DNA of 64,000 nucleotides, taken from Escherichia phage EP01. The DNA is taken from the sequence record OM135583.1, one strand, 5' to 3'. The translations under genes were made by a program, and so were the position numbers. Below, piece after piece: positions 2,705 through 61,760 of the stretch; within the stretch, counting starts at the first letter, position 1, and the number at the start of each line of letters is the position of its first letter. The notes under the pieces were generated by a model. That model searched no databases, was not told the DNA's origin, and worked only from the letters and a program-made list of their open reading frames with translations.

Positions 2705-4329
<1,625 letters not shown>

Positions 4330-4330
<1 letters not shown>

Positions 4331-4572
4331 TGGAAGGTTTAATTGAAGCTATTAAATCAAACGACCTCGTAGCCGCTCGTAAATTATTTGCTGAAGCCAT
4401 GGCTGCAAGAACGATTGATTTAATTAAAGAAGAAAAAATCGCTATCGCCCGTAATTTCTTAATCGAAGGTGAAGAACCTGAAGACGAGGATGATGACGAA
4501 GATGGTGATGATAAAGACGACAAAAAAGACAAAGACTCTGACGAAGATGACGAAGACGAGGATGATGAATAA
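4330..4572 (+). CDS. 67: prohead core protein with poly-acidic C-terminal tail, 80 aa
   Basis: ATGA-type junction with gene 20; D/E-rich tail; size and position as T4 gp67. Confidence 0.85.
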
Positions 4573-4997
4573 TGCTTCTGATCCCTGAAACTCATGAATT
4601 AGTTCTCGAGAATGTCGAAGCACTTATTCCTGAAGCACAGGGTCGCTTTGACGAATTGTCTTCTGCTTTAAATAAAGACGATATAAATACAATTATCGAG
4701 AATATGCTTGATGATGAAACTGATTTAGCAGTTGCATTAGCTTCTATTAATGAAAATATGCCGTTAAATGAATTCATTGTTAAGCATGTTTCAGCTCGTG
4801 GTGAAATTACACGTACTAAAGACCGCAAAACACGCGAACGTAATGCATTTCAAACCACCGGGCTGTCTAAAGCAAAACGTAGACAAATTGCTCGCAAAGC
4901 TACCAAAACGAAGATTGCCAATCCAGCAGGTCAATCTCGTGCTCAGCGTAAGCGTAAAAAAGCTCTTAAACGCCGTAAAGCATTAGGATTAAGCTAA
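4572..4997 (+). CDS. 68: prohead core protein, 141 aa
   Basis: Overlapping junctions with 67 and 21; basic C-terminus; size as T4 gp68. Confidence 0.85.
4682..4689 (+). promoter_or_regulatory. possible internal late promoter TATAAATA inside gene 68
   Basis: Exact 8-mer ~300 nt upstream of gene 21; could be chance in AT-rich DNA. Confidence 0.3.
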
Positions 4998-5635
4998 TGA
5001 ATGAACCCCAATTACTAATTGAAACTTGGGGTCAACCTGGCGAAATTATTGATGGTGTGCCAATGCTTGAATCCCACGATGGAAAAGACTTAGGTTTAAA
5101 ACCGGGTTTATACATCGAAGGAATATTCATGCAAGCAGAAGTCGTCAATAGAAATAAACGTCTTTATCCAAAACGCATATTAGAAAAAGCGGTAAAAGAC
5201 TATATTAATGAGCAAGTTTTAACTAAACAGGCTCTCGGAGAATTAAATCATCCTCCACGCGCTAATGTTGACCCGATGCAAGCCGCTATCATTATAGAAG
5301 ATATGTGGTGGAAAGGAAATGACGTATACGGACGAGCTCGTGTTATTGAAGGTGACCACGGTCCTGGAGATAAATTAGCAGCTAATATTCGTGCCGGATG
5401 GATTCCAGGAGTTTCTTCTCGTGGATTAGGTTCATTGACTGACACAAATAAAGGTTATCGTATCGTAAACGAAGGATTCAAATTAACTGTAGGTGTTGAT
5501 GCAGTATGGGGTCCAAGTGCTCCAGATGCATGGGTAACTCCTAAGGAAATTACCGAATCACAGACGGCGGAAGCCGATACAAGTGCCGATGACGCCTATA
5601 TGGCTCTCGCAGAGGCCATGAAAAAAGCGTTATAA
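4997..5635 (+). CDS. 21: prohead core protease, 212 aa
   Basis: Size and synteny match T4 gp21. Confidence 0.92.
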   Translation: MNEPQLLIETWGQPGEIIDGVPMLESHDGKDLGLKPGLYIEGIFMQAEVVNRNKRLYPKRILEKAVKDYINEQVLTKQALGELNHPPRANVDPMQAAIIIEDMWWKGNDVYGRARVIEGDHGPGDKLAANIRAGWIPGVSSRGLGSLTDTNKGYRIVNEGFKLTVGVDAVWGPSAPDAWVTPKEITESQTAEADTSADDAYMALAEAMKKAL

Positions 5636-5638
5636 ATA
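5631..5638 (+). promoter_or_regulatory. late promoter TATAAATA for gene 22
   Basis: Exact 8-mer 28 nt upstream of ATG. Confidence 0.65.
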
Positions 5639-5665
5639 TTATTATCTAAACAACAGGACTACAAA

Positions 5666-6475
5666 ATGCTTAAAGAACAACTGATTGCTGAAGCGCAAAA
5701 AATTGATGCTTCCGTTGCTCTTGATAGTATTTTCGAATCAGTTAATATTTCTCCGGAAGCAAAAGAAACTTTCGGCACTGTATTCGAAGCTACCGTCAAG
5801 CAGCACGCCGTTAAATTAGCTGAATCTCATATCGCTAAAATTGCTGAAAAAGCAGAAGAAGAAGTAGAAAAAAATAAAGAAGAAGCCGAAGAAAAAGCTG
5901 AGAAGAAAATCGCTGAGCAAGCTTCTAAATTCATCGACCATCTTGCGAAAGAATGGCTCGCTGAAAATAAATTAGCAGTTGATAAAGGCATCAAAGCCGA
6001 ACTGTTTGAATCCATGCTTGGTGGATTAAAAGAGCTCTTTGTTGAACACAACGTTGTTGTTCCAGAAGAATCAGTTGATGTTGTGGCTGAAATGGAAGAA
6101 GAGCTGCAAGAACATAAAGAAGAATCAGCTCGTCTGTTCGAAGAACTCAATATGCGCGACGCATATATCAATTATGTGCAGCGTGAAGTGGCATTGAGCG
6201 AAAGTACTAAAGATCTGACTGAGTCTCAAAAAGAAAAAGTCTCTGCTCTGGTCGAAGGTATGGATTATTCAGATGAATTCTCAAATAAATTGAGTGCCAT
6301 CGTAGAAATGGTGAAGAAGTCTAATAAAGATGAAAGCACTATTACTGAGGGTATAAATACTCCTGATACTGAAGCAGCCGGACTGAATTTCGTCACTGAA
6401 GCTGTAGAAGATAAAACTGCACCTGGTGCAGAAGATATTGTAAGTGTATATGCGAAAGTCGCATCTCGTTTCTAA
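5666..6475 (+). CDS. 22: prohead core scaffold protein, 269 aa
   Basis: E/K-rich coiled-coil-like protein; size and position as T4 gp22; TATAAATA at 5631-5638. Confidence 0.92.
   Translation: MLKEQLIAEAQKIDASVALDSIFESVNISPEAKETFGTVFEATVKQHAVKLAESHIAKIAEKAEEEVEKNKEEAEEKAEKKIAEQASKFIDHLAKEWLAENKLAVDKGIKAELFESMLGGLKELFVEHNVVVPEESVDVVAEMEEELQEHKEESARLFEELNMRDAYINYVQREVALSESTKDLTESQKEKVSALVEGMDYSDEFSNKLSAIVEMVKKSNKDESTITEGINTPDTEAAGLNFVTEAVEDKTAPGAEDIVSVYAKVASRF
6352..6359 (+). promoter_or_regulatory. late promoter TATAAATA for gene 23, inside gene 22
   Basis: Exact 8-mer 135 nt upstream of gene 23 ATG. Confidence 0.6.
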
Positions 6476-6493: not shown

Positions 6494-8059
6494 ATGACTA
6501 TCAAAACTAAAGCTGAACTTTTGAACAAATGGAAGCCATTACTGGAAGGTGAAGGTTTACCGGAAATTGCTAATAGCAAACAAGCGATTATCGCTAAAAT
6601 CTTTGAAAACCAGGAAAAAGATTTCCAGACAGCTCCAGAGTACAAAGACGAAAAAATCGCTCAGGCGTTCGGTTCTTTCTTAACAGAAGCTGAAATCGGT
6701 GGTGACCACGGTTACAATGCTACTAACATCGCTGCAGGTCAGACTTCTGGCGCAGTAACTCAGATTGGCCCAGCTGTTATGGGTATGGTACGTCGTGCTA
6801 TTCCTAACCTGATTGCTTTCGATATTTGCGGTGTTCAGCCGATGAATAGCCCGACCGGTCAGGTATTCGCACTGCGCGCAGTATATGGTAAAGACCCAAT
6901 CGCTTCCGGCGCTAAAGAAGCATTCCACCCAATGTATGGTCCAGATGCAATGTTCTCTGGTCAGGGTGCTGCTAAGAAATTCGCTGCTTTGAAAGCAAGT
7001 GATACTCTTGAAGTTGGAACTATTTACACCCACTTCTTCCAGGACACTGGTACTGTGTATCTGCAAGCTACAGAAGCTAAACAAATTGATTCCGCTGCAT
7101 CTGACGCAGACAAATTAGATGCTGAAATTAAGAAACAAATGGAAGCTGGTGTACTGGTAGAAATCGCTGAAGGTATGGCTACTTCTATCGCTGAACTTCA
7201 GGAAAGTTTCAACGGTTCTACCGATAACCCATGGAATGAAATGGGCTTCCGTATCGATAAACAAGTTATCGAAGCTAAATCTCGCCAGCTGAAAGCTGCT
7301 TACTCTATCGAATTAGCACAAGACCTCCGCGCTGTTCACGGTATGGATGCTGATGCTGAACTGTCTGGTATTCTGGCTACCGAAATCATGCTGGAAATTA
7401 ACCGTGAAGTTGTTGATTGGATTAACTACTCAGCTCAGGTTGGTAAATCTGGTATGACCCTGACTCCAGGTTCTAAAGCTGGTGTATTTGACTTCCAGGA
7501 TCCGATTGATATTCGTGGTGCTCGCTGGGCGGGTGAATCCTTTAAAGCTCTGCTGTTCCAGATTGACAAAGAAGCAGTTGAAATTGCTCGTCAGACCGGT
7601 CGTGGTGAAGGTAACTTCATTATCGCTTCCCGTAACGTAGTTAACGTTCTGGCTTCAGTTGATACTGGCATTTCTTATGCTGCACAGGGTCTGGCCACCG
7701 GCTTTAACACTGATACTACCAAGTCAGTATTTGCTGGTGTTCTGGGTGGTAAATACCGTGTATATATCGACCAGTATGCTAAACAGGATTATTTCACCGT
7801 AGGTTATAAAGGTCCGAACGAAATGGATGCAGGTATTTACTATGCTCCATATGTAGCTCTGACTCCGCTGCGTGGTTCCGATCCGAAGAACTTCCAACCA
7901 GTAATGGGATTCAAAACTCGTTACGGTATCGGTATCAACCCATTTGCAGAATCCGCTGCTCAGGCTCCGGCTTCTCGCATCCAGAGCGGTATGCCTTCTA
8001 TTCTGAATAGCCTTGGTAAAAACGCTTACTTCCGCCGTGTATATGTTAAAGGTATCTAA
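6494..8059 (+). CDS. 23: major capsid protein, 521 aa
   Basis: N-terminus MTIKTKAELLNKWKPLLEGEG and length match T4 gp23; high-expression codon usage; UUCG hairpin terminator follows. Confidence 0.97.
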   Translation: MTIKTKAELLNKWKPLLEGEGLPEIANSKQAIIAKIFENQEKDFQTAPEYKDEKIAQAFGSFLTEAEIGGDHGYNATNIAAGQTSGAVTQIGPAVMGMVRRAIPNLIAFDICGVQPMNSPTGQVFALRAVYGKDPIASGAKEAFHPMYGPDAMFSGQGAAKKFAALKASDTLEVGTIYTHFFQDTGTVYLQATEAKQIDSAASDADKLDAEIKKQMEAGVLVEIAEGMATSIAELQESFNGSTDNPWNEMGFRIDKQVIEAKSRQLKAAYSIELAQDLRAVHGMDADAELSGILATEIMLEINREVVDWINYSAQVGKSGMTLTPGSKAGVFDFQDPIDIRGARWAGESFKALLFQIDKEAVEIARQTGRGEGNFIIASRNVVNVLASVDTGISYAAQGLATGFNTDTTKSVFAGVLGGKYRVYIDQYAKQDYFTVGYKGPNEMDAGIYYAPYVALTPLRGSDPKNFQPVMGFKTRYGIGINPFAESAAQAPASRIQSGMPSILNSLGKNAYFRRVYVKGI

Positions 8060-8073
8060 GATATAACCTTATT

Positions 8074-8095
8074 ATGGGAGACTTCGGTCTCCCAT
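8074..8095 (+). terminator. hairpin with UUCG tetraloop after gene 23
   Basis: GGGAGAC, TTCG loop, GTCTCCC, then T-rich tract. Confidence 0.7.
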
Positions 8096-8108
8096 TCTTG
8101 TTTCTATA

Positions 8109-8375
8109 CTACGCAATCTTAACTCGACGGTTGATGATGTCACGGAAGTCAATACGATTTTCTTGGATTTTCAGCCAGTTACCAGATTTGTCTTTGGTAT
8201 GGGTAGAATATTCACCGTTCCACCAGAAGTCAGTAGCATAAGCCATGGTTTCATATTTCTTAACTAGGGCATTCACTGCATTACCGTTAGGATTGGAACC
8301 ATATTTTTCTACCAGGGCTTTGATGTCTTTATCAAGAGCGGACAGAGTAGTACGAATAAAGTTTAACTTGTTCAT
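8109..8375 (-). CDS. hypothetical protein, 88 aa, opposite strand between genes 23 and 24
   Basis: Track ORF 93 aa; internal ATG at 8375 is preceded by GAGGAGA SD at 7 nt; sigma70-like promoter upstream on minus strand; no recognisable motif. Confidence 0.45.
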   Translation of the reverse strand: MNKLNFIRTTLSALDKDIKALVEKYGSNPNGNAVNALVKKYETMAYATDFWWNGEYSTHTKDKSGNWLKIQENRIDFRDIINRRVKIA

Positions 8376-8405
8376 TTTTAATCTCCTCATGTTTTTGATA
8401 GGTCT

Positions 8406-8434
8406 ATAGTAACATGTGATAACCTTGCTGTAAA
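8406..8434 (-). promoter_or_regulatory. sigma70-type early promoter for the 88-aa ORF
   Basis: Minus strand TTTACA, 17-nt spacer ending TGT, TACTAT. Confidence 0.5.
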
Positions 8435-8441
8435 CAACTTT

Positions 8442-8449
8442 TATAAATA
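8442..8449 (+). promoter_or_regulatory. late promoter TATAAATA for gene 24
   Basis: Exact 8-mer 29 nt upstream of ATG. Confidence 0.65.
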
Positions 8450-8477
8450 AACATATACTCTCAACAAGGAAAGCGCA

Positions 8478-9761
8478 ATGGCTAAAATCAACGAACTTCT
8501 GCGCGAATCAACCACAACGAATAGCAACTCAATCGGTCGCCCAAATCTCGTTGCTTTGACTCGCGCTACCACTAAATTAATATATTCTGACATTGTAGCA
8601 ACGCAAAGAACTAATCAACCTGTTGCTGCTTTTTATGGTATCAAATACCTTAACCCAGATAATGAATTTACATTTAAAACTGGTGCTACTTACGCTGGCG
8701 AAGCTGGATATGTAGACCGAGAACAAATCACAGAATTAACAGAAGAGTCTAAATTAACTCTCAATAAAGGCGATTTATTCAAATATAATAATATCGTTTA
8801 TAAAGTATTAGAAGATACACCATTTGCTACCATTGAAGAAAGCGATTTAGAATTAGCTCTTCAGATTGCAATTGTTCTTTTAAAGGTTCGCCTATTTTCT
8901 GACGCAGCGTCAACAAGCAAATTTGAAAGCTCTGATAGCGAAATTGCTGATGCTAGATTCCAGATTAATAAATGGCAAACCGCAGTTAAATCTCGTAAAC
9001 TTAAAACTGGTATCACAGTTGAATTAGCACAAGATTTAGAAGCAAATGGATTCGATGCTCCTAATTTCTTGGAAGATTTGCTTGCAACTGAAATGGCGGA
9101 TGAAATCAATAAAGATATTCTACAGTCTTTGATTACAGTATCAAAACGCTATAAAGTTACAGGAATTACTGATACCGGATTCATTGATTTGAGTTATGCA
9201 TCTGCACCTGAAGCTGGTCGTTCATTATACCGAATGGTATGTGAAATGGTTTCGCATATCCAAAAAGAATCAACTTATACAGCAACGTTCTGCGTTGCTT
9301 CAGCTCGTGCCGCTGCGATTCTTGCTGCATCAGGTTGGTTAAAACATAAACCAGAAGATGATAAATATCTTTCACAAAATGCCTACGGGTTCTTAGCTAA
9401 TGGTTTACCGCTTTATTGCGATACTAACAGCCCATTAGATTATGTAATCGTTGGCGTGGTAGAAAATATTGGCGAAAAAGAAATTGTTGGATCAATTTTC
9501 TATGCCCCGTATACAGAAGGTCTGGACTTAGATGACCCTGAACATGTAGGTGCATTTAAAGTTGTAGTTGATCCAGAAAGTTTGCAGCCATCTATTGGTT
9601 TATTAGTTAGATATGCTTTATCTGCAAATCCTTACACTGTAGCAAAAGATGAAAAAGAAGCAAGAATAATTGATGGTGGAGACATGGATAAAATGGCGGG
9701 TCGTTCAGATTTGTCTGTTTTATTAGGTGTTAAGCTACCAAAAATTATCGTTGATGAATAA
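8478..9761 (+). CDS. 24: head vertex protein, 427 aa
   Basis: Size and sequence as T4 gp24; TATAAATA at 8442-8449. Confidence 0.94.
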   Translation: MAKINELLRESTTTNSNSIGRPNLVALTRATTKLIYSDIVATQRTNQPVAAFYGIKYLNPDNEFTFKTGATYAGEAGYVDREQITELTEESKLTLNKGDLFKYNNIVYKVLEDTPFATIEESDLELALQIAIVLLKVRLFSDAASTSKFESSDSEIADARFQINKWQTAVKSRKLKTGITVELAQDLEANGFDAPNFLEDLLATEMADEINKDILQSLITVSKRYKVTGITDTGFIDLSYASAPEAGRSLYRMVCEMVSHIQKESTYTATFCVASARAAAILAASGWLKHKPEDDKYLSQNAYGFLANGLPLYCDTNSPLDYVIVGVVENIGEKEIVGSIFYAPYTEGLDLDDPEHVGAFKVVVDPESLQPSIGLLVRYALSANPYTVAKDEKEARIIDGGDMDKMAGRSDLSVLLGVKLPKIIVDE

Positions 9762-11373: not shown

Positions 11374-12225
11374 TTATGGATAGGTATAGATGATACCAGT
11401 TTCTAAAGCAGTTTTATGAATGATGTATCCATTGCGCGATTCTTGAACATCAACTTCTGGATAGTCTTTCATCATCTTCTGAAGAGTGTAACGATGCAAG
11501 TAATATTTACTATCTGGGTCGTCAGTTTTCCAATCTTTACCTTCTTCGGTCATTTTTTGGATTTCATCCATAACCCACCAACCGCACCAGATATAAGCTG
11601 AAGTACGATGTGGAAGAGGATGAACATAAGGTAATTCACCTTCTGGTTCTTGAGCAACTTTATCATTCACAGTCAGTGATACTTCATTCGAAGTAACTTC
11701 CTTTGCATCATAATCTGTCGCGGTTACTTGAGCCACACACTTAATTGTTTTAACTCCGCTTGTGGAAGGAGTGTAATTAAATGTAGCGGAAGTTGCTTCA
11801 CTAACAGGAGAATCATCTACATACCATTGATATGTAGCAGATGCGCCTGATGGTTGAGAAGCTAAGGCAGCAGTAAATTGAACTGGGGTTCCAATTACTC
11901 CAGCAGCAGGACTAGCAGGAGTTACAGCTAAGGTAGTTGTCTGTGTCTTATTTTGAACTGTGATAGTTGTAGAAGCTTCTGCTGTTTCAGCATCAGAATC
12001 AGGAATAGTATTTGTTGCAACTACTTTAATAGTCTTTTGACCGGCAGGTCCTTTTAATACATAATCAAAAGTTGCTTCAGCTCCATCTTGTGGAACATTA
12101 TCTACAGTCCAAGCATAGGTAATAGTTCCACCTCCAGTTTCACCACTGGGTGTAGCAGTAAACTGCTGAGTCTGATCTATAACTCCAGTAGGTGTTTTAG
12201 GAGTTATATCAACTGTAAAAGCCAT
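11374..12225 (-). CDS. hoc: highly immunogenic outer capsid protein Hoc, short form, 283 aa
   Basis: N-terminal Ig-like repeats and C-terminal capsid-binding region match remembered T4 Hoc; only two Ig-like repeats visible. Confidence 0.88.
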   Translation of the reverse strand: MAFTVDITPKTPTGVIDQTQQFTATPSGETGGGTITYAWTVDNVPQDGAEATFDYVLKGPAGQKTIKVVATNTIPDSDAETAEASTTITVQNKTQTTTLAVTPASPAAGVIGTPVQFTAALASQPSGASATYQWYVDDSPVSEATSATFNYTPSTSGVKTIKCVAQVTATDYDAKEVTSNEVSLTVNDKVAQEPEGELPYVHPLPHRTSAYIWCGWWVMDEIQKMTEEGKDWKTDDPDSKYYLHRYTLQKMMKDYPEVDVQESRNGYIIHKTALETGIIYTYP

Positions 12226-12964: not shown

Positions 12965-13582
12965 ATGTATCACTTTGTATATGAAACGACAAATCTAATA
13001 AATGGTAAAAAGTATATAGGAAAACACTCTACTGATGACTTGAATGATGGCTACCTTGGTTCCGGTAAGGCAATTCAGCAGGCTATAAAGAAATATGGTG
13101 AAAAGAATTTCTCTAGAACAATACTAAAAGAGTTTAAAACTTCCGAAGAAGCGTACATGTATGAAGAAGAAATTATAACTCCTGAACTAATAAAAAGCAA
13201 AAATTATTATAATATGAAACCTGGTGGAATTGGTGGAATTGTTATGACTGCAGAGGTTATAGCAAAGATGAAAGAATCTTCCGCTAAGAGATTTGAAAAC
13301 TCACCGGGCACGGTATTAGGTACAACTTGTTACACCAATGGAACTAAAAATATTTTTATTAAACCCGGAGAACTTGTTCCAGAAGGATTTGTAAAAGGGA
13401 TGGTTCATCTTAATAGAAAGTCCAGAAAAGGATGTAAAGTCAAACCGACTACCACAGGAACTTTTTGGGTCAATAATGGAGCAATAAATAAATTAATACA
13501 ACCAGACGGTATTATTCCCGATGGATTTATTAAAGGTCGTCTCATGAAAAGAGACTCTAAAGGCAAATTTAGTAAGGCATAA
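12965..13582 (+). CDS. segE: GIY-YIG homing endonuclease, 205 aa
   Basis: N-terminal GIY-YIG module (YHFVYETTNLINGKKYIGKH); size and position between inh and uvsW as T4 SegE. Confidence 0.9.
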   Translation: MYHFVYETTNLINGKKYIGKHSTDDLNDGYLGSGKAIQQAIKKYGEKNFSRTILKEFKTSEEAYMYEEEIITPELIKSKNYYNMKPGGIGGIVMTAEVIAKMKESSAKRFENSPGTVLGTTCYTNGTKNIFIKPGELVPEGFVKGMVHLNRKSRKGCKVKPTTTGTFWVNNGAINKLIQPDGIIPDGFIKGRLMKRDSKGKFSKA

Positions 13583-23946: not shown

Positions 23947-23999
23947 CCTCATGTTATGTCAGTAAGATTATTATAACACAACACGAGGGACTTGTAAAC
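23947..23999 (-). promoter_or_regulatory. early promoter plus leader cassette, copy 1, upstream of the 96-aa gene
   Basis: Minus strand GTTTACA, 17-nt spacer, TGT-TATAAT, leader with GAGGAA SD; 49/53 identical to copy at 39103-39155. Confidence 0.6.
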
Positions 24000-35822: not shown

Positions 35823-35851
35823 ATAATATCACAACTCTACCGTAAAGTAAA
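35823..35851 (-). promoter_or_regulatory. sigma70-type early promoter for the 78-aa cd.x gene
   Basis: Minus strand TTTACT, 17-nt spacer ending TGTGA, TATTAT. Confidence 0.5.
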
Positions 35852-47207: not shown

Positions 47208-47236
47208 ATAGTATCACACTACTACCCTTCTGTAAA
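47208..47236 (-). promoter_or_regulatory. sigma70-type early promoter upstream of the 80-aa gene
   Basis: Minus strand GTTTACA, 17-nt spacer ending TGTGA, TACTAT. Confidence 0.5.
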
Positions 47237-47920: not shown

Positions 47921-47949
47921 ATAGTACCACAGTATGCTTTGGTTGTAAA
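47921..47949 (-). promoter_or_regulatory. sigma70-type early promoter upstream of the 75-aa gene
   Basis: Minus strand GTTTACA, 17-nt spacer ending TGG, TACTAT. Confidence 0.45.
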
Positions 47950-51192: not shown

Positions 51193-51254
51193 ATGAACCT
51201 CGTTCAATTAGTGAGATTTCTATTATATACCATCCGAATCTTAAAGTAAACAAG

Positions 51255-51296: not shown

Positions 51297-54200
51297 ATGG
51301 CCGAGATTAAAAGAAAGTTCAGAGCAGAAGACGGTCTGGACGCAGGTGGCGATAAAATAATCAACGTAGCTTTAGCTGATCGTACCGTAGGAACTGACGG
51401 TGTTAACGTTGATTACCTAATTCAAGAAAACACAGTTCAACAATACGATCCAACTCGTGGATATTTAAAAGATTTTGTAATCATTTATGATAACCGCTTT
51501 TGGGCTGCTATAAATGATATTCCAAAACCGGCAGGAACTTTTAATAGTGGACGCTGGAGAGCATTGCGTACTGATGCTAACTGGATCACAGTTTCATCTG
51601 GTTCATATCAATTAAAATCCGGTGAAGCTATTTCGGTTAACACTGCAGCTGGTAATGATATTACATTTACTTTACCATCTTCCCCAATTGACGGTGACAC
51701 TATCGTTCTCCAAGATATTGGAGGAAAACCTGGAGTTAACCAAGTTTTAATTGTAGCTCCGGTGCAAAGTATTGTAAACTTCAGAGGCGAACAAGTACGT
51801 TCAGTACTAATGACTCATCCAAAGTCACAGTTAGTTTTAATTTTTAGTAATCGTCTGTGGCAAATGTATGTTGCTGATTATAGTAGAGAAGCTGTAATTG
51901 CAACACCAGCGAATACTTATCAAGCGCAATCTAACGATTTTATCGTACGTAGATTTACTTCTGCTGCACCGATTAATATTAAACTTCCGAGATTTGCCAA
52001 TCACGGCGATATTATTAATTTCGTCGATTTAGATAAACTAAATCCGCTTTATCATACAATTGTTACTACATACGATGAAACTACTTCAATACAAGAAGAT
52101 GGAACTCATTCTATTGAAGGCCGTACATCGATTGACGGTTTCTTGATGTATGATGATAATGAAAAATTGTGGAGATTGTTTGACGGGGATAATAAAGCAC
52201 GTTTACGTATTATAACAACTAATTCAAATATTCGTCCAAATGAAGAAGTTATGGTATTTGGTGCGAATAACGGAACAGCTCAGACAATTGAGCTTAAGCT
52301 TCCAACTAATATTTCTGTTGGTGATACTGTTAAAATTTCCATGAATTACATGAAAAAAGGACAAACAGTTAAAATCAAAGCTGCTGGTGAAGATAAAATT
52401 GCTTCTTCAGTTCAATTGCTGCAATTCCCAAAACGTTCAGAGTATCCGCCTGAAGCTGAATGGGTGACTGTTCAAGAATTAGTTTTTAACGGTGAAACTA
52501 ATTATGTTCCAGTTTTAGAGCTTGCTTATATAGAAGATTCTGATGGAAAATATTGGGTTGTACAGCAAAACGTTCCAACCGTAGAAAGAGTTGATTCTTT
52601 AAATGATTCTACTAGAGCGAGATTAGGCGTAATTGCTTTAGCTACACAAGCTCAAGCTAACGTTGATTTAGAAAATTCTCCACAAAAAGAATTAGCAATT
52701 ACTCCAGAAACATTAGCTAATCGTACTGCTACAGAAACTCGCAGAGGTATCGCAAGAATAGCAACTACTGCCCAAGTGAATCAGAACACTACATTCTCTT
52801 TTGCTGATGATATTATCATTACTCCTAAAAAGCTGAATGAAAGAACTGCTACAGAAACTCGTAGAGGTGTTGCTGAAATTGCTACGCAACAGGAAACTAA
52901 TGCAGGTACTGATGATACTACAATCATCACTCCTAAAAAGCTTCAAGCTCGTCAAGGTTCTGAATCATTATCTGGTATTGTAACCTTTGTATCTACCGCA
53001 GGAGCTACTCCAGCTTCTAGTCGTGAATTAAATGGTACAAACGTTTATAATAAAAACACTAATAATTTAGTTGTTTCGCCTAAAGCTTTGGATCAGTATA
53101 AAGCTACTCCAACACAGCAAGGTGCAGTAATTTTAGCAGTTGAAAGTGAAGTAATTGCTGGACAGAGCCAAGAAGGATGGGCAAATGCGGTTGTAACACC
53201 AGAAACGTTACATAAAAAGACATCAACTGATGGAAGAATTGGTTTAATTGAAATTGCTACGCAAAGTGAAGTTAATACAGGAACTGATTATACTCGTGCA
53301 GTAACTCCTAAAACTTTAAATGACCGTATAGCAACTGAAAGTTTAAGTGGTATAGCTGAAATTGCTACACAAGTTGAATTCGACGCAGGCGTCGACGATA
53401 CTCGTATCTCTACACCATTAAAAATTAAAACTAGATTTAATAGTACTGATCGTACTTCTGTTGTTGCTCTATCTGGATTAGTTGAATCAGGAACTCTCTG
53501 GGACCATTATACCCTTAATATTCTTGAAGCAAATGAGACACAACGTGGTACACTTCGTGTGGCTACGCAAGTTGAAGCTGCTGCAGGAACATTAGATAAC
53601 GTTCTAATAACTCCTAAAAAGCTTTTAGGTACTAAATCTACCGAATCGCAAGAAGGTGTTATTAAAGTTGCAACTCAGTCTGAAACTGTAACTGGAACGT
53701 CAGCAAATACTGCTGTATCTCCAAAAAATTTAAAATGGATTGCGCAGAGTGAACCTACTTGGGCAGCTACTACTGCGATAAGAGGTTTTGTTAAAACTTC
53801 ATCTGGTTCAATTACATTCGTTGGTAATGATACAGTTGGTTCTACACAGAGCTTAGAGCTATACGAGAAAAATAGCTATGCAGTATCACCATATGAATTA
53901 AACCGTGTATTAGCAAATTATTTGCCGTTAAAAGCAAAAGCTGCTGATACAAATTTATTGGATGGTCTAGATTCATCCCAGTTCATTCGTAGGGATATTG
54001 TACAGACGGTTAATGGTTCACTAACCTTAACCCAACAAACGAATCTGAGTGCCCCTCTTGTATCATCTAGTACTGCTACGTTTGGTGGATCAGTTTCGGC
54101 AAATAGTACATTAACTATTTCTAACTCTGGAACAGCAACTCGTCTGATTTTCGAAAAAGGTCCTGCATCTGGGGCAAATCCTGCACAGTCAATGAGTATT

Positions 54201-61607: not shown

Positions 61608-61760
61608 TCAATTAGTTGACTTTATTATAATATCATCAGACGCTTGATTTGTAAACTGGTCTGTGTTATTTTCTTCAAAAATTTTTTCTACGAATTCCTT
61701 GAACGACTCACGTTCCTGAGCTACATTATGCTCGATTACCTTTTCAAGATTATGACTCAT
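61608..61760 (-). CDS. possible small protein, 50 aa; absent from ORF track
   Basis: My translation: MSHNLEKVIEHNVAQERESFKEFVEKIFEENNTDQFTNQASDDIIIKSTN; ATG overlaps upstream stop (ATGA). Confidence 0.35.
   Translation of the reverse strand: MSHNLEKVIEHNVAQERESFKEFVEKIFEENNTDQFTNQASDDIIIKSTN

What the first reader, a model, noticed from the sequence alone, without database searches (positions are those of the whole stretch)
8109..8477. Opposite-strand small gene with its own early-type promoter between capsid genes 23 and 24
The 418-bp gap between genes 23 and 24 carries a minus-strand ORF (88 aa from the ATG at 8375, with GAGGAGA SD). Upstream on the minus strand is TTTACA, a 17-nt spacer, an extended TG and TACTAT at 8406-8434. 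It is antisense to the late capsid operon and would be expressed early. As I remember the T4 map, this interval holds the homing endonuclease gene segD; here there is no endonuclease-sized ORF. The protein has no motif I recognise.
Basis: partly seen in the sequence, partly recalled or inferred. Interest (0 to 1): 0.6.

Follow-up and report, generated by a model that had tools for sequence, protein, structure and literature searches.

The report
Small early accessory gene between capsid genes
The gap between the two capsid genes of this T4-like phage holds a real 88-residue gene on the opposite strand with its own early-type promoter; it is an optional, laterally exchanged cassette already annotated as "hypothetical protein" in related phages, and its function is unknown.

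Summary
The 418-bp gap between gene 23 (6494-8059) and gene 24 (8478-9761) carries a minus-strand ORF (8375-8109, 88 aa). It has a GAGGAGA Shine-Dalgarno sequence and a TTTACA-N17-(TG)TACTAT promoter at 8434-8406.

The ORF is a real gene. dN/dS is 0.03-0.13 against homologues. It sits at the same place in Tequatro-, Dhaka-, Gapriver- and Mosigvirus (237 of 50,697 phage records). It matches PHROG 6003 (function unknown) and is named "hypothetical" everywhere.

The promoter fits the published T4-type early consensus TTTACW-N17-TAYWAT. The window has 8 exact matches, all on the minus strand, against 0.33 expected. The hexamers are kept across genera while the spacer diverges. T4 has the homologous promoter in front of segD, whose RNA is classed as early.

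The gap has four states among T-evens: empty (most common in the sample), segD only (T4), ORF only (here) and ORF+segD. The ORF's dS against JS98 is 0.16, versus 0.78 and 1.93 for genes 23 and 24. So the cassette moved laterally.

A confident model (pLDDT 89) shows a three-helix bundle with a β-hairpin. It has no informative match by fold or sequence.

Most likely it is a dispensable early protein that binds a host or defence factor. This is an ordinary kind of thing, with modest interest.

The parts
8074..8095 (+). Gene 23 intrinsic terminator: hairpin AUGGGAGAC-UUCG-GUCUCCCAU followed by a U-rich tail. On the minus strand the same stem forms 13 nt after the ORF's stop codon but has no U-tract.
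   Evidence: Terminator scan. Folding gives -15.2 kcal/mol on the + strand (z -3.5) and -16.1 on the - strand (z -4.3). Annotated as a terminator in phage G28. The stem sequence travels with the cassette and differs from that of empty-site phages and of T4.
8109..8375 (-). Protein-coding gene: 88 aa, 10.3 kDa, pI 9.6, no Cys, no membrane segment. Predicted fold: helix 3-25, helix 31-47, β-hairpin 52-61/67-71, helix 77-87.
   Evidence: ORF list. PHROG 6003, E 5.8e-50, full length. dN/dS 0.03 against JS98, 0.09 against F2, 0.13 against VR26. AlphaFold2 pLDDT 89.4, pTM 0.75. Physical properties.
8382..8388 (-). Shine-Dalgarno sequence GAGGAGA, 7 nt from the GGAG core to the ATG at 8375, in an unstructured leader.
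   Evidence: Sequence. Kept in homologues. Leader folds at 0 kcal/mol.
8406..8434 (-). Early-type sigma-70 promoter: -35 GTTTACA (8435-8429), 17-nt spacer, extended -10 TGT-TACTAT (8414-8406). Inferred transcription start near 8398.
   Evidence: Scan. Exact match to TTTACW-N17-TAYWAT, the T4/PST early consensus of Comeau et al. 2014 (PMC4122927). Window has 8 matches, all on the minus strand, against 0.33 expected. Hexamers kept while the spacer diverges in six phages. Each of the ten fetched T-even loci that match has a single match, lying just upstream of the gene, or of segD in T4.
8442..8449 (+). Late promoter TATAAATA of gene 24. It is divergent from the early promoter and lies 8 bp from its -35 element, where an A/T-rich upstream element of the early promoter would sit.
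   Evidence: Sequence. The same element is annotated as a late promoter in phage fPS-2. TTATTTATAAA next to GTTTACA is kept in all six aligned phages.
8060..8441 (.). The exchangeable intergenic cassette (terminator, ORF, early promoter). It is absent from 'empty-site' Tequatroviruses, whose gap is about 83 bp.
   Evidence: Alignment with the empty site of fPS-2, with T4, AV116 and JS98. Identity to JS98 is 0.93-1.0 over about 8050-8470 against 0.5-0.9 in the flanks. dS is 0.16 against 0.78 and 1.93.

Best explanation
This is a self-contained, dispensable early-gene cassette set into the late capsid operon. Host sigma-70 RNA polymerase starts at the T4-type early promoter (8434-8406) in the first minutes of infection. 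It reads away from gene 24 through a 23-nt unstructured leader with a strong ribosome-binding site. The product is a soluble, basic 88-residue protein. The RNA 3' end falls at, or is protected by, the stable hairpin that also terminates gene 23 on the other strand. The protein is a compact three-helix bundle with a β-hairpin and an invariant N-G-N..N loop. It shows no enzyme-like features. Like other small non-essential T-even early proteins, it most likely acts by binding a host, defence or competitor macromolecule. The cassette spreads between phage lineages by recombination through the conserved ends of genes 23 and 24. In some phages the homing endonuclease gene segD has inserted 3 nt after its stop codon and uses its promoter and translation. 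In T4 only the promoter, leader and segD remain.

Shown: the gene is real and under purifying selection, the promoter class and its conservation, the four-state polymorphism, and the lateral transfer.

Inferred: early timing, and the binding-type function and its target.
For: Real gene: 8 synonymous against 1 non-synonymous change versus JS98; dN/dS 0.03-0.13 where dS is not saturated. It holds the same position and strand in four genera. AlphaFold2 pLDDT is 89.4.

Early promoter: exact fit to TTTACW-N17-TAYWAT. All 8 window matches are on the early-gene strand, against 0.33 expected. Hexamers and TG are kept while the spacer diverges. The homologous T4 promoter is the only consensus match in 14 kb, and T4 segD is classed 'early RNA, middle protein', with SegD protein detected.

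Dispensable and accessory: 237 of 936 records with matching 23/24 flanks carry it. Most sampled Tequatroviruses have an empty gap of about 83 bp between 97-98% identical flanks. The RB69 copy is split by two frameshifts.

Lateral transfer: dS is 0.16 for the ORF against 0.78 (gene 23) and 1.93 (gene 24) versus JS98, with a sharp identity step at the gene borders. Within Mosigvirus, AV116 and Shf125875 share 97-100% identical flanks but carry different cassette alleles.

Not tied to the capsid: homologues in the Vequintavirinae phage ABPH49 and in a metagenome contig sit in same-strand arrays of tiny ORFs.

segD piggy-backing: in AV116 and F2 the sequence reads TAA-AAT-ATG(segD), with no ribosome-binding site of its own.
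Against: No transcript, protein or phenotype data exist for this gene in any phage (searches found no literature). The T4 evidence concerns segD, whose RNA could also come from upstream promoters, as Edgell et al. 2010 proposed. The function is argued only from size, timing, distribution and the absence of catalytic signatures. No fold or sequence relative of known function was found. The hairpin lacks a U-tract on the minus strand, so the transcript may not end there.
Confidence: 0.6

Rival explanations
1. The gene belongs functionally to the SegD homing endonuclease. It would act as a helper, regulator or antidote, or simply as the expression platform and landing pad of the mobile element, with no independent role for the phage.
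For: segD sits 3 nt downstream in AV116, F2 and the LF82 phages, without its own ribosome-binding site. T4 segD uses the homologous promoter and leader. The segD-linked allele has replaced the resident Mosigvirus allele with sharp junctions, as endonuclease-driven co-conversion would do.
Against: Most carriers have the ORF without segD: Dhakavirus, Gaprivervirus, most Mosigvirus and this window. Selection on the protein is strong in those lineages. Homologues in Vequintavirinae-type contigs have no Pfam-recognisable endonuclease among their neighbours in L011. T4 keeps segD without the ORF.
Confidence: 0.12
2. It is a capsid-related factor, such as an assembly chaperone, a regulator of gene 23 or 24, or a minor head protein, as its location between the capsid genes might suggest.
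For: Its position between genes 23 and 24 is constant in four T-even genera. Its promoter overlaps the upstream region of the gene 24 late promoter.
Against: It lies on the opposite strand with an early-type promoter. No late TATAAATA or MotA box lies upstream on its strand. It is absent from most Tequatroviruses, whose gene 23 and 24 flanks are 97-98% identical to the window's. Homologues outside the T-evens lie in arrays of small same-strand ORFs, not in head modules.
Confidence: 0.05
3. The transcript, not the protein, is the functional product. It would be an early antisense RNA that reads through the hairpin into antisense gene 23, or that pairs with 23-to-24 read-through RNA, to tune capsid gene expression.
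For: On the minus strand the hairpin is followed by AAUAAGG rather than a U-tract, so termination may be leaky. The orientation is antisense to the late operon.
Against: The substitution pattern shows selection on the amino-acid sequence (dN/dS 0.03-0.13). A strong, accessible ribosome-binding site is conserved. The protein folds confidently. An RNA role could at most be additional.
Confidence: 0.05
4. It is a chance ORF and a chance promoter match in an AT-rich spacer.
For: The generic sigma-70 scan is not enriched in this kilobase (5 sites against 2.7 expected).
Against: Purifying selection. Family conservation down to 30-37% identity. Consensus enrichment with strand bias. Conserved hexamers. 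Confident fold.
Confidence: 0.01

Closest known systems
JS98 orf173 (EpJS98_gp173, YP_001595302) and G28 KMC08_gp231; PHROG 6003
   Same: The G28 protein is identical, and the 461-bp interval is 100% identical in G28, GEP001, KIT06 and others. JS98 orf173 differs by one residue. Position and strand between genes 23 and 24 are the same. The HMM match is full length, E 5.8e-50.
   Different: Nothing differs; this is the same gene. All records call it hypothetical or uncharacterised, and no paper naming it was found.
Promoter-early/stem-loop (PeSL) regulatory cassettes and the ORFans they flank in T4-type phages (Arbiol et al. 2010, PMC2839356; Comeau et al. 2014, PMC4122927)
   Same: The promoter fits the T4/PST PeSL consensus TTTACW-N17-TAYWAT exactly. 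A small non-essential ORF is bounded by an early promoter and a stable stem-loop. It is present or absent between close relatives and is exchanged as a module. The paper notes that such motifs inside the conserved core accompany plastic non-essential genes.
   Different: A PeSL is a composite in which the stem-loop directly precedes the promoter, between same-strand early genes. Here the stem-loop is the gene 23 terminator, 3' of the ORF. The unit sits alone and inverted inside a late operon. The exchange junctions are the ends of genes 23 and 24, not PeSL repeats.
T4 segD locus (free-standing GIY-YIG homing endonuclease between genes 23 and 24)
   Same: Same gap and same strand. The promoter and leader region is homologous (GTTTACA/ATTTACA, N17, TG-n-TAYTAT). 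T4 segD RNA is classed as early. In AV116 and F2 the two genes are adjacent and share one promoter.
   Different: The 88-aa protein has no GIY-YIG domain and no similarity to SegD. It is a different gene that shares the site, not a degraded endonuclease.
Small non-essential early proteins of T-even phages that act by binding host factors (for example AsiA, Alc, Arn, Dmd, Stp; named from general knowledge) and Emp of Mosigvirus AV110 (bioRxiv 10.64898/2026.09.14.751387)
   Same: About 10 kDa, soluble, with an early promoter, dispensable, with a fold of no known function, and patchily distributed in Tevenvirinae.
   Different: There is no sequence or fold relation to any of them, and no target, toxicity or phenotype is known. 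The AV110 screen chose genes by homology to T4 early genes, so it could not have included this gene, which T4 lacks.

Membership tests
PHROG 6003 (phage protein family of unknown function) | Significant full-length match to the family HMM | tested here: met
   E 5.8e-50, 168 bits, residues 1-88 on profile positions 1-88 of 90.
T4-type early (sigma-70) promoter class | TTTACW, 17-nt spacer, TAYWAT (consensus of Comeau et al. 2014), often with TG upstream of the -10 element | tested here: met
   TTTACA-N17-TACTAT with TGT before the -10 element. The class is enriched 8 against 0.33 expected and lies only on the minus strand in this window.
T4-type early (sigma-70) promoter class | Transcription in the first minutes of infection by unmodified host RNA polymerase | not testable with these tools
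   The only evidence is indirect: T4 segD, behind the homologous promoter, is classed as early RNA.
PeSL composite motif (Arbiol 2010; Comeau 2014) | Stem-loop terminator immediately followed by the early promoter, as one conserved unit repeated through the genome | tested here: not met
   No strong stem-loop abuts the promoter on its upstream side. The only candidate is a weak 6-pair stem inside gene 24 at 8541-8523. The strong hairpin lies 3' of the ORF.
PeSL composite motif (Arbiol 2010; Comeau 2014) | Association with small variable ORFs that differ between close relatives | tested here: met
   Four-state polymorphism of the gap among phages whose flanks are 97-98% identical.
GIY-YIG homing endonuclease (SegD-like) | GIY-YIG catalytic domain plus a DNA-binding domain, about 200-225 aa | tested here: not met
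   88 aa and no GIY-YIG hit. The window's segE-like ORF at 12965-13582 does hit PF19835/PF01541 in the same kind of search.
Pfam DUF5380 (PF17351) | Score at or above the gathering threshold (29 bits) | tested here: not met
   13.2 bits, E 0.085, C-terminal third only, and only in 3 closely related members of 9.
Known anti-phage defence proteins (PADLOC) or NCBIfam named families | Significant HMM match | tested here: not met
   No family for the window protein in PADLOC. Only noise-level hits far below the cut-offs in NCBIfam.

The most novel reading that the evidence does not exclude
The protein may be a new type of early effector with a previously unclassified fold, either an inhibitor of a bacterial defence system or a modulator of a host process. 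It would be carried on a promoter-plus-gene cassette that moves between T-even genera, has relatives in Vequintavirinae-like phages, and has been co-opted by the SegD homing endonuclease as its expression platform. The same comparison also gives T4 segD the promoter that an earlier review reported it lacked.
Probability: 0.3. Interest if true: 0.55.

Novelty: new member of a known kind. Interest (0 to 1): 0.3.

Why it matters
On its own this is one more uncharacterised small early gene of a T4-like phage, already present in GenBank as a hypothetical protein. Three things make it modestly useful.

1. It is a clean natural experiment. Near-isogenic phages exist with the gap empty, with the ORF, with segD, or with both, so its function can be tested by comparing or swapping a 380-bp cassette.

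2. It shows how a homing endonuclease gene can lodge behind a resident accessory gene and borrow its promoter and translation. It also points to a conserved early-type promoter in front of T4 segD, which a 2010 review described as having no identifiable promoter.

3. If the protein proves to be an anti-defence or host-takeover factor, it would be a new fold for that role, with a very narrow distribution: about five 50%-identity clusters among 1.84 billion representatives.

Tried and rejected
Searches that gave no function:
- Pfam, NCBIfam and PADLOC gave nothing significant.
- The weak DUF5380 hit (13 bits against a cut-off of 29) was set aside.
- A PDB sequence profile gave nothing.
- Foldseek against BFVD found only a family member.

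Tools or sources that were unavailable:
- AFDB50 was not installed.
I reran it without that row.
- The T4 genome review (PMC150520) and the 2018 SegD paper are not held. What I say about the SegD paper is limited to its title as cited.

Homology and literature:
- The word-indexed protein search returned only 7 close relatives.
- The exhaustive representative search added four divergent clusters, plus spurious low-complexity hits to long proteins and one chimeric 160-aa assembly product.
- Searches for the gene's locus tags and accessions found nothing relevant. A search for 'JS98' was uninformative.
- The AV110 early-protein screen did not include this gene.

Hypotheses rejected:
- A degraded segD: there is no similarity.
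- A paralogue elsewhere in the window: none was found.
- A late or MotA-type promoter on the minus strand: none is seen.
- The 93-aa start at 8390: it has no ribosome-binding site and is not conserved.

Full report
**What is there.** The window is a T4-like phage. Gene 23 (major capsid protein) is at 6494-8059 and gene 24 (vertex protein) at 8478-9761, both on the + strand. RNA ligase 2 (rnlB) follows on the - strand. The gap of 418 bp holds a minus-strand ORF, 8390-8109. From the ATG at 8375 it encodes 88 residues. GAGGAGA (8388-8382) precedes that ATG at ideal spacing, in a leader with no predicted structure. The upstream ATG at 8390 has no ribosome-binding site and is not kept in Mosigvirus homologues. 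Upstream on the same strand lie GTTTACA, a 17-nt spacer, TGT and TACTAT (8435-8406). Thirteen nt past the stop codon lies the hairpin GGGAGAC-UUCG-GUCUCCC (8074-8095). On the + strand this hairpin is the gene 23 terminator. The late promoter TATAAATA of gene 24 is at 8442-8449, 8 bp from the -35 element of the divergent early promoter.

**Is it a gene?** Yes. The 461 bases around it are 100% identical in phages G28, GEP001, KIT06 and others. They are 96% identical in JS98, where the ORF is annotated as a hypothetical protein (G28 KMC08_gp231, JS98 orf173).
- tblastn finds the protein in 237 of 50,697 phage records.
- In each T-even locus I examined it lies between genes 23 and 24 on the opposite strand. 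These include Dhakavirus JS98, Gaprivervirus VR26 (63% identity), Mosigvirus Shf125875 (34-37%) and a metagenomic T-even contig.
- Against JS98 there are 8 synonymous changes and 1 non-synonymous change (dN/dS 0.03). dN/dS is 0.09 against F2 and 0.13 against VR26.
- It matches PHROG 6003 over its full length, E 5.8e-50, function unknown.
- With a diverse alignment, AlphaFold2 gives pLDDT 89.4 and pTM 0.75. The fold is helix 3-25, helix 31-47, a β-hairpin (52-61, 67-71) and helix 77-87.
- The protein is 10.3 kDa, pI 9.6 and hydrophilic, without cysteines or membrane segments, and has no paralogue in the window.

**Is the promoter more than chance?** The generic sigma-70 scan is not enriched in this kilobase (5 sites against 2.7 expected). 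Comeau et al. 2014 give the early-promoter consensus of T4-type regulatory cassettes as TTTACW-N17-TAYWAT (PMC4122927).
- The window has 8 exact matches against 0.33 expected, and 0 of 100 shuffles reach 8. All 8 are on the minus strand, and the six I checked lie just upstream of minus-strand ORFs. Six of them, including this one, also carry TG before the -10 element.
- Across six phages, GTTTACA (ATTTACA in T4) is kept and the -10 element is TACTAT, TATTAT or CATAAT. The 17-nt spacer has diverged almost completely.
- The pattern occurs once in each of the ten fetched T-even loci that match, each time in front of the gene.
- In T4 the only match in 14 kb (0.04 expected) is 21 nt upstream of the annotated segD start.
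- In the time-resolved T4 omics data, segD is classed 'early RNA, middle protein' and SegD protein is detected (PMC9697503 supplement).
- Early expression of the 88-aa gene is therefore well supported, but it is still an inference. No transcript data exist for a phage that carries the gene.

**The gap is polymorphic and the cassette moves.** I sampled 60 of the 936 records that match the flanks. The gap shows four states:
- empty, about 83 bp holding only a terminator and the late promoter: the most frequent state in the sample, for example fPS-2, RB33 and HP3;
- segD only: T4, PP01 and ECML-134;
- the ORF only: this window, Dhakavirus, Gaprivervirus and most Mosigvirus;
- the ORF followed by segD: F2, AV116 and the LF82 phages.

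The empty site lacks the minus-strand promoter, and its terminator stem has a different sequence. So the whole interval from the gene 23 stop codon to the gene 24 late promoter is exchanged as a unit.

Against JS98, identity is 0.93-1.0 over about 8050-8470 and 0.5-0.9 in the flanking genes. dS is 0.16 for the ORF, 0.78 for gene 23 and 1.93 for gene 24. Against T4, the window's genes 23 and 24 have dS 0.16 and 0.14. The window is thus a Tequatrovirus backbone carrying a gap allele shared with Dhakavirus.

Within Mosigvirus, AV116 and Shf125875 have flanks 97-100% identical up to the gene borders but carry different alleles. Shf125875 has the Mosigvirus-type ORF. AV116 has the Dhaka/Tequatro-type ORF plus segD. 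RB69's copy is split by two frameshifts into ORF188c and ORF189c. Together with the empty sites, this indicates the gene is dispensable, at least in the laboratory.

**Relation to segD.** The protein is not a degraded endonuclease. It has no GIY-YIG domain and no similarity to SegD. In AV116 and F2, segD starts 3 nt after the ORF's stop codon (TAA-AAT-ATG) and has no ribosome-binding site of its own. There, segD would be transcribed from the ORF's promoter and probably translated by re-initiation. This matches what Edgell et al. 2010 describe for several free-standing T4 endonucleases that overlap the upstream gene. In T4 the homologous promoter and leader are joined directly to segD. The second ATG of the annotated MFKMKYL... 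start aligns both with the ORF's ATG and with Met1 of AV116 SegD (MNYLIY...). Edgell et al. wrote that bioinformatic searches found no segD-specific promoter. The consensus match, its conservation, and the early RNA class argue that there is one.

**Function.** No informative relative was found.
- The exhaustive search of 1.84 billion representatives found only about five true clusters, all 87-90 aa. All named members are 'hypothetical'.
- Pfam, NCBIfam, PADLOC and a PDB sequence profile gave nothing significant.
- Invariant residues are F6, L21, G26, N30-G31-N32, N35, A45 and Q71. The N-G-N..N motif sits in the loop and N-terminal cap of helix 2.
- Outside the T-evens, homologues occur in the Vequintavirinae phage ABPH49 and in a metagenomic contig. 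There they sit in long same-strand arrays of tiny ORFs, next to a T7 gp0.6-like gene. That context separates the protein from capsid biology and fits an early accessory role.

My best reading has these layers: a real gene (about 0.97), with an early promoter (about 0.8), whose product is a dispensable early protein that acts by binding a host, defence or competitor macromolecule (about 0.5). I put 0.6 on the explanation as a whole.

The rivals, and why they rank lower:
- A SegD-linked role (0.12): weakened because most carriers lack segD.
- A capsid-related role (0.05): weakened by strand, promoter type, absence from most close relatives, and the non-T-even contexts.
- A purely RNA or antisense role (0.05): contradicted as the main function by dN/dS. 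The hairpin does lack a U-tract on the minus strand, so read-through into antisense gene 23 remains possible.
- Chance (0.01).

**Verdict.** It is an ordinary kind of object for T4-type phages: a small early ORFan on a promoter-plus-stem-loop module. The gene is already catalogued as a hypothetical protein. It fits the promoter class of the published PeSL cassettes but not their composite architecture. Interest is modest (0.3). The most useful by-products are the four-state natural polymorphism, the clear lateral transfer, and the inferred promoter and expression logic for segD.

Noticed in passing
L003 (T4 NC_000866) 7254-7282, minus strand; record about 107253-107281: T4 has an exact TTTACW-N17-TAYWAT match (TTTACA...TG-A-TATTAT) 21 nt upstream of the annotated segD start. 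It is the only match in 14 kb (0.04 expected) and is homologous to the small ORF's promoter. Edgell et al. 2010 stated that no segD-specific promoter could be found. The T4 omics data class segD RNA as early.
   Followed up: partly
L003 7222-7233 (T4 segD start) compared with L008 1315-1317 (AV116 segD start): T4 SegD is annotated as starting MFKMKYLIYQ. AV116 SegD starts MNYLIYK, and the small ORF's ATG aligns with the second T4 ATG. The real T4 start may therefore be Met4, which would also ease the oddly placed ribosome-binding site noted by Edgell et al.
   Followed up: partly
L009 (RB69 NC_004928) 8292-8532, minus strand: RB69ORF188c and RB69ORF189c are two pieces of the same gene, broken by a +1 and a -1 frameshift relative to Shf125875 (96% identical DNA). 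This is either a pseudogene or errors in an old sequence. A cluster of mismatches surrounds the first shift.
   Followed up: partly
L006 (phage F2, NC_054913) and L008 (AV116): F2 is filed under Tequatrovirus, but its gene 23, gap and gene 24 region is 97-100% identical to Mosigvirus AV116. Either the label does not fit this region or the genome is mosaic.
   Followed up: no
L010 (Acinetobacter phage ABPH49, Vequintavirinae) 3495-3761; L011 6001-6264 (metagenome contig SRR30397407_518): Family members about 33-35% identical to the window protein lie outside the T-even phages. They sit inside long same-strand arrays of tiny uncharacterised ORFs. In L011 the array includes T7 gp0.6-like, DUF7222 and Phage_g100 genes.
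   Followed up: partly
window 23970-23998, 35823-35851, 47208-47236, 47921-47949, 51222-51250, 51750-51778, 61627-61655 (all minus strand): Seven further exact matches to the T4-type early promoter consensus. The six I checked against the ORF list lie just upstream of minus-strand ORFs, and most carry the extended TG. They give a ready map of early promoters in this window.
   Followed up: no
window 12965-13582 (+) and 11374-12225 (-): The phage lacks segD but keeps a segE-like GIY-YIG endonuclease between inh and uvsW, as in T4. Its Hoc-like ORF is only 283 aa, against 376 aa in T4 (1131-nt CDS) and about 472 aa in G28. So this window is not the same phage as G28, even though the 23-24 gap is identical.
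   Followed up: partly
P0010 (160 aa) and P0019 (90 aa) from the representative search: P0010 carries 34 residues identical to the middle of the ORF, fused to unrelated sequence, so it is almost certainly an assembly or gene-calling chimera. P0019, a clear family member, is named 'NADPH-dependent curcumin reductase CurA' by one source, an evident misannotation.
   Followed up: no
L002 (JS98) 3437-6001; L005 (VR26); L012: Dhakavirus, Gaprivervirus and the P0008-bearing contig carry two tandem copies of gene 24 downstream of the cassette. The window and T4 carry one.
   Followed up: no
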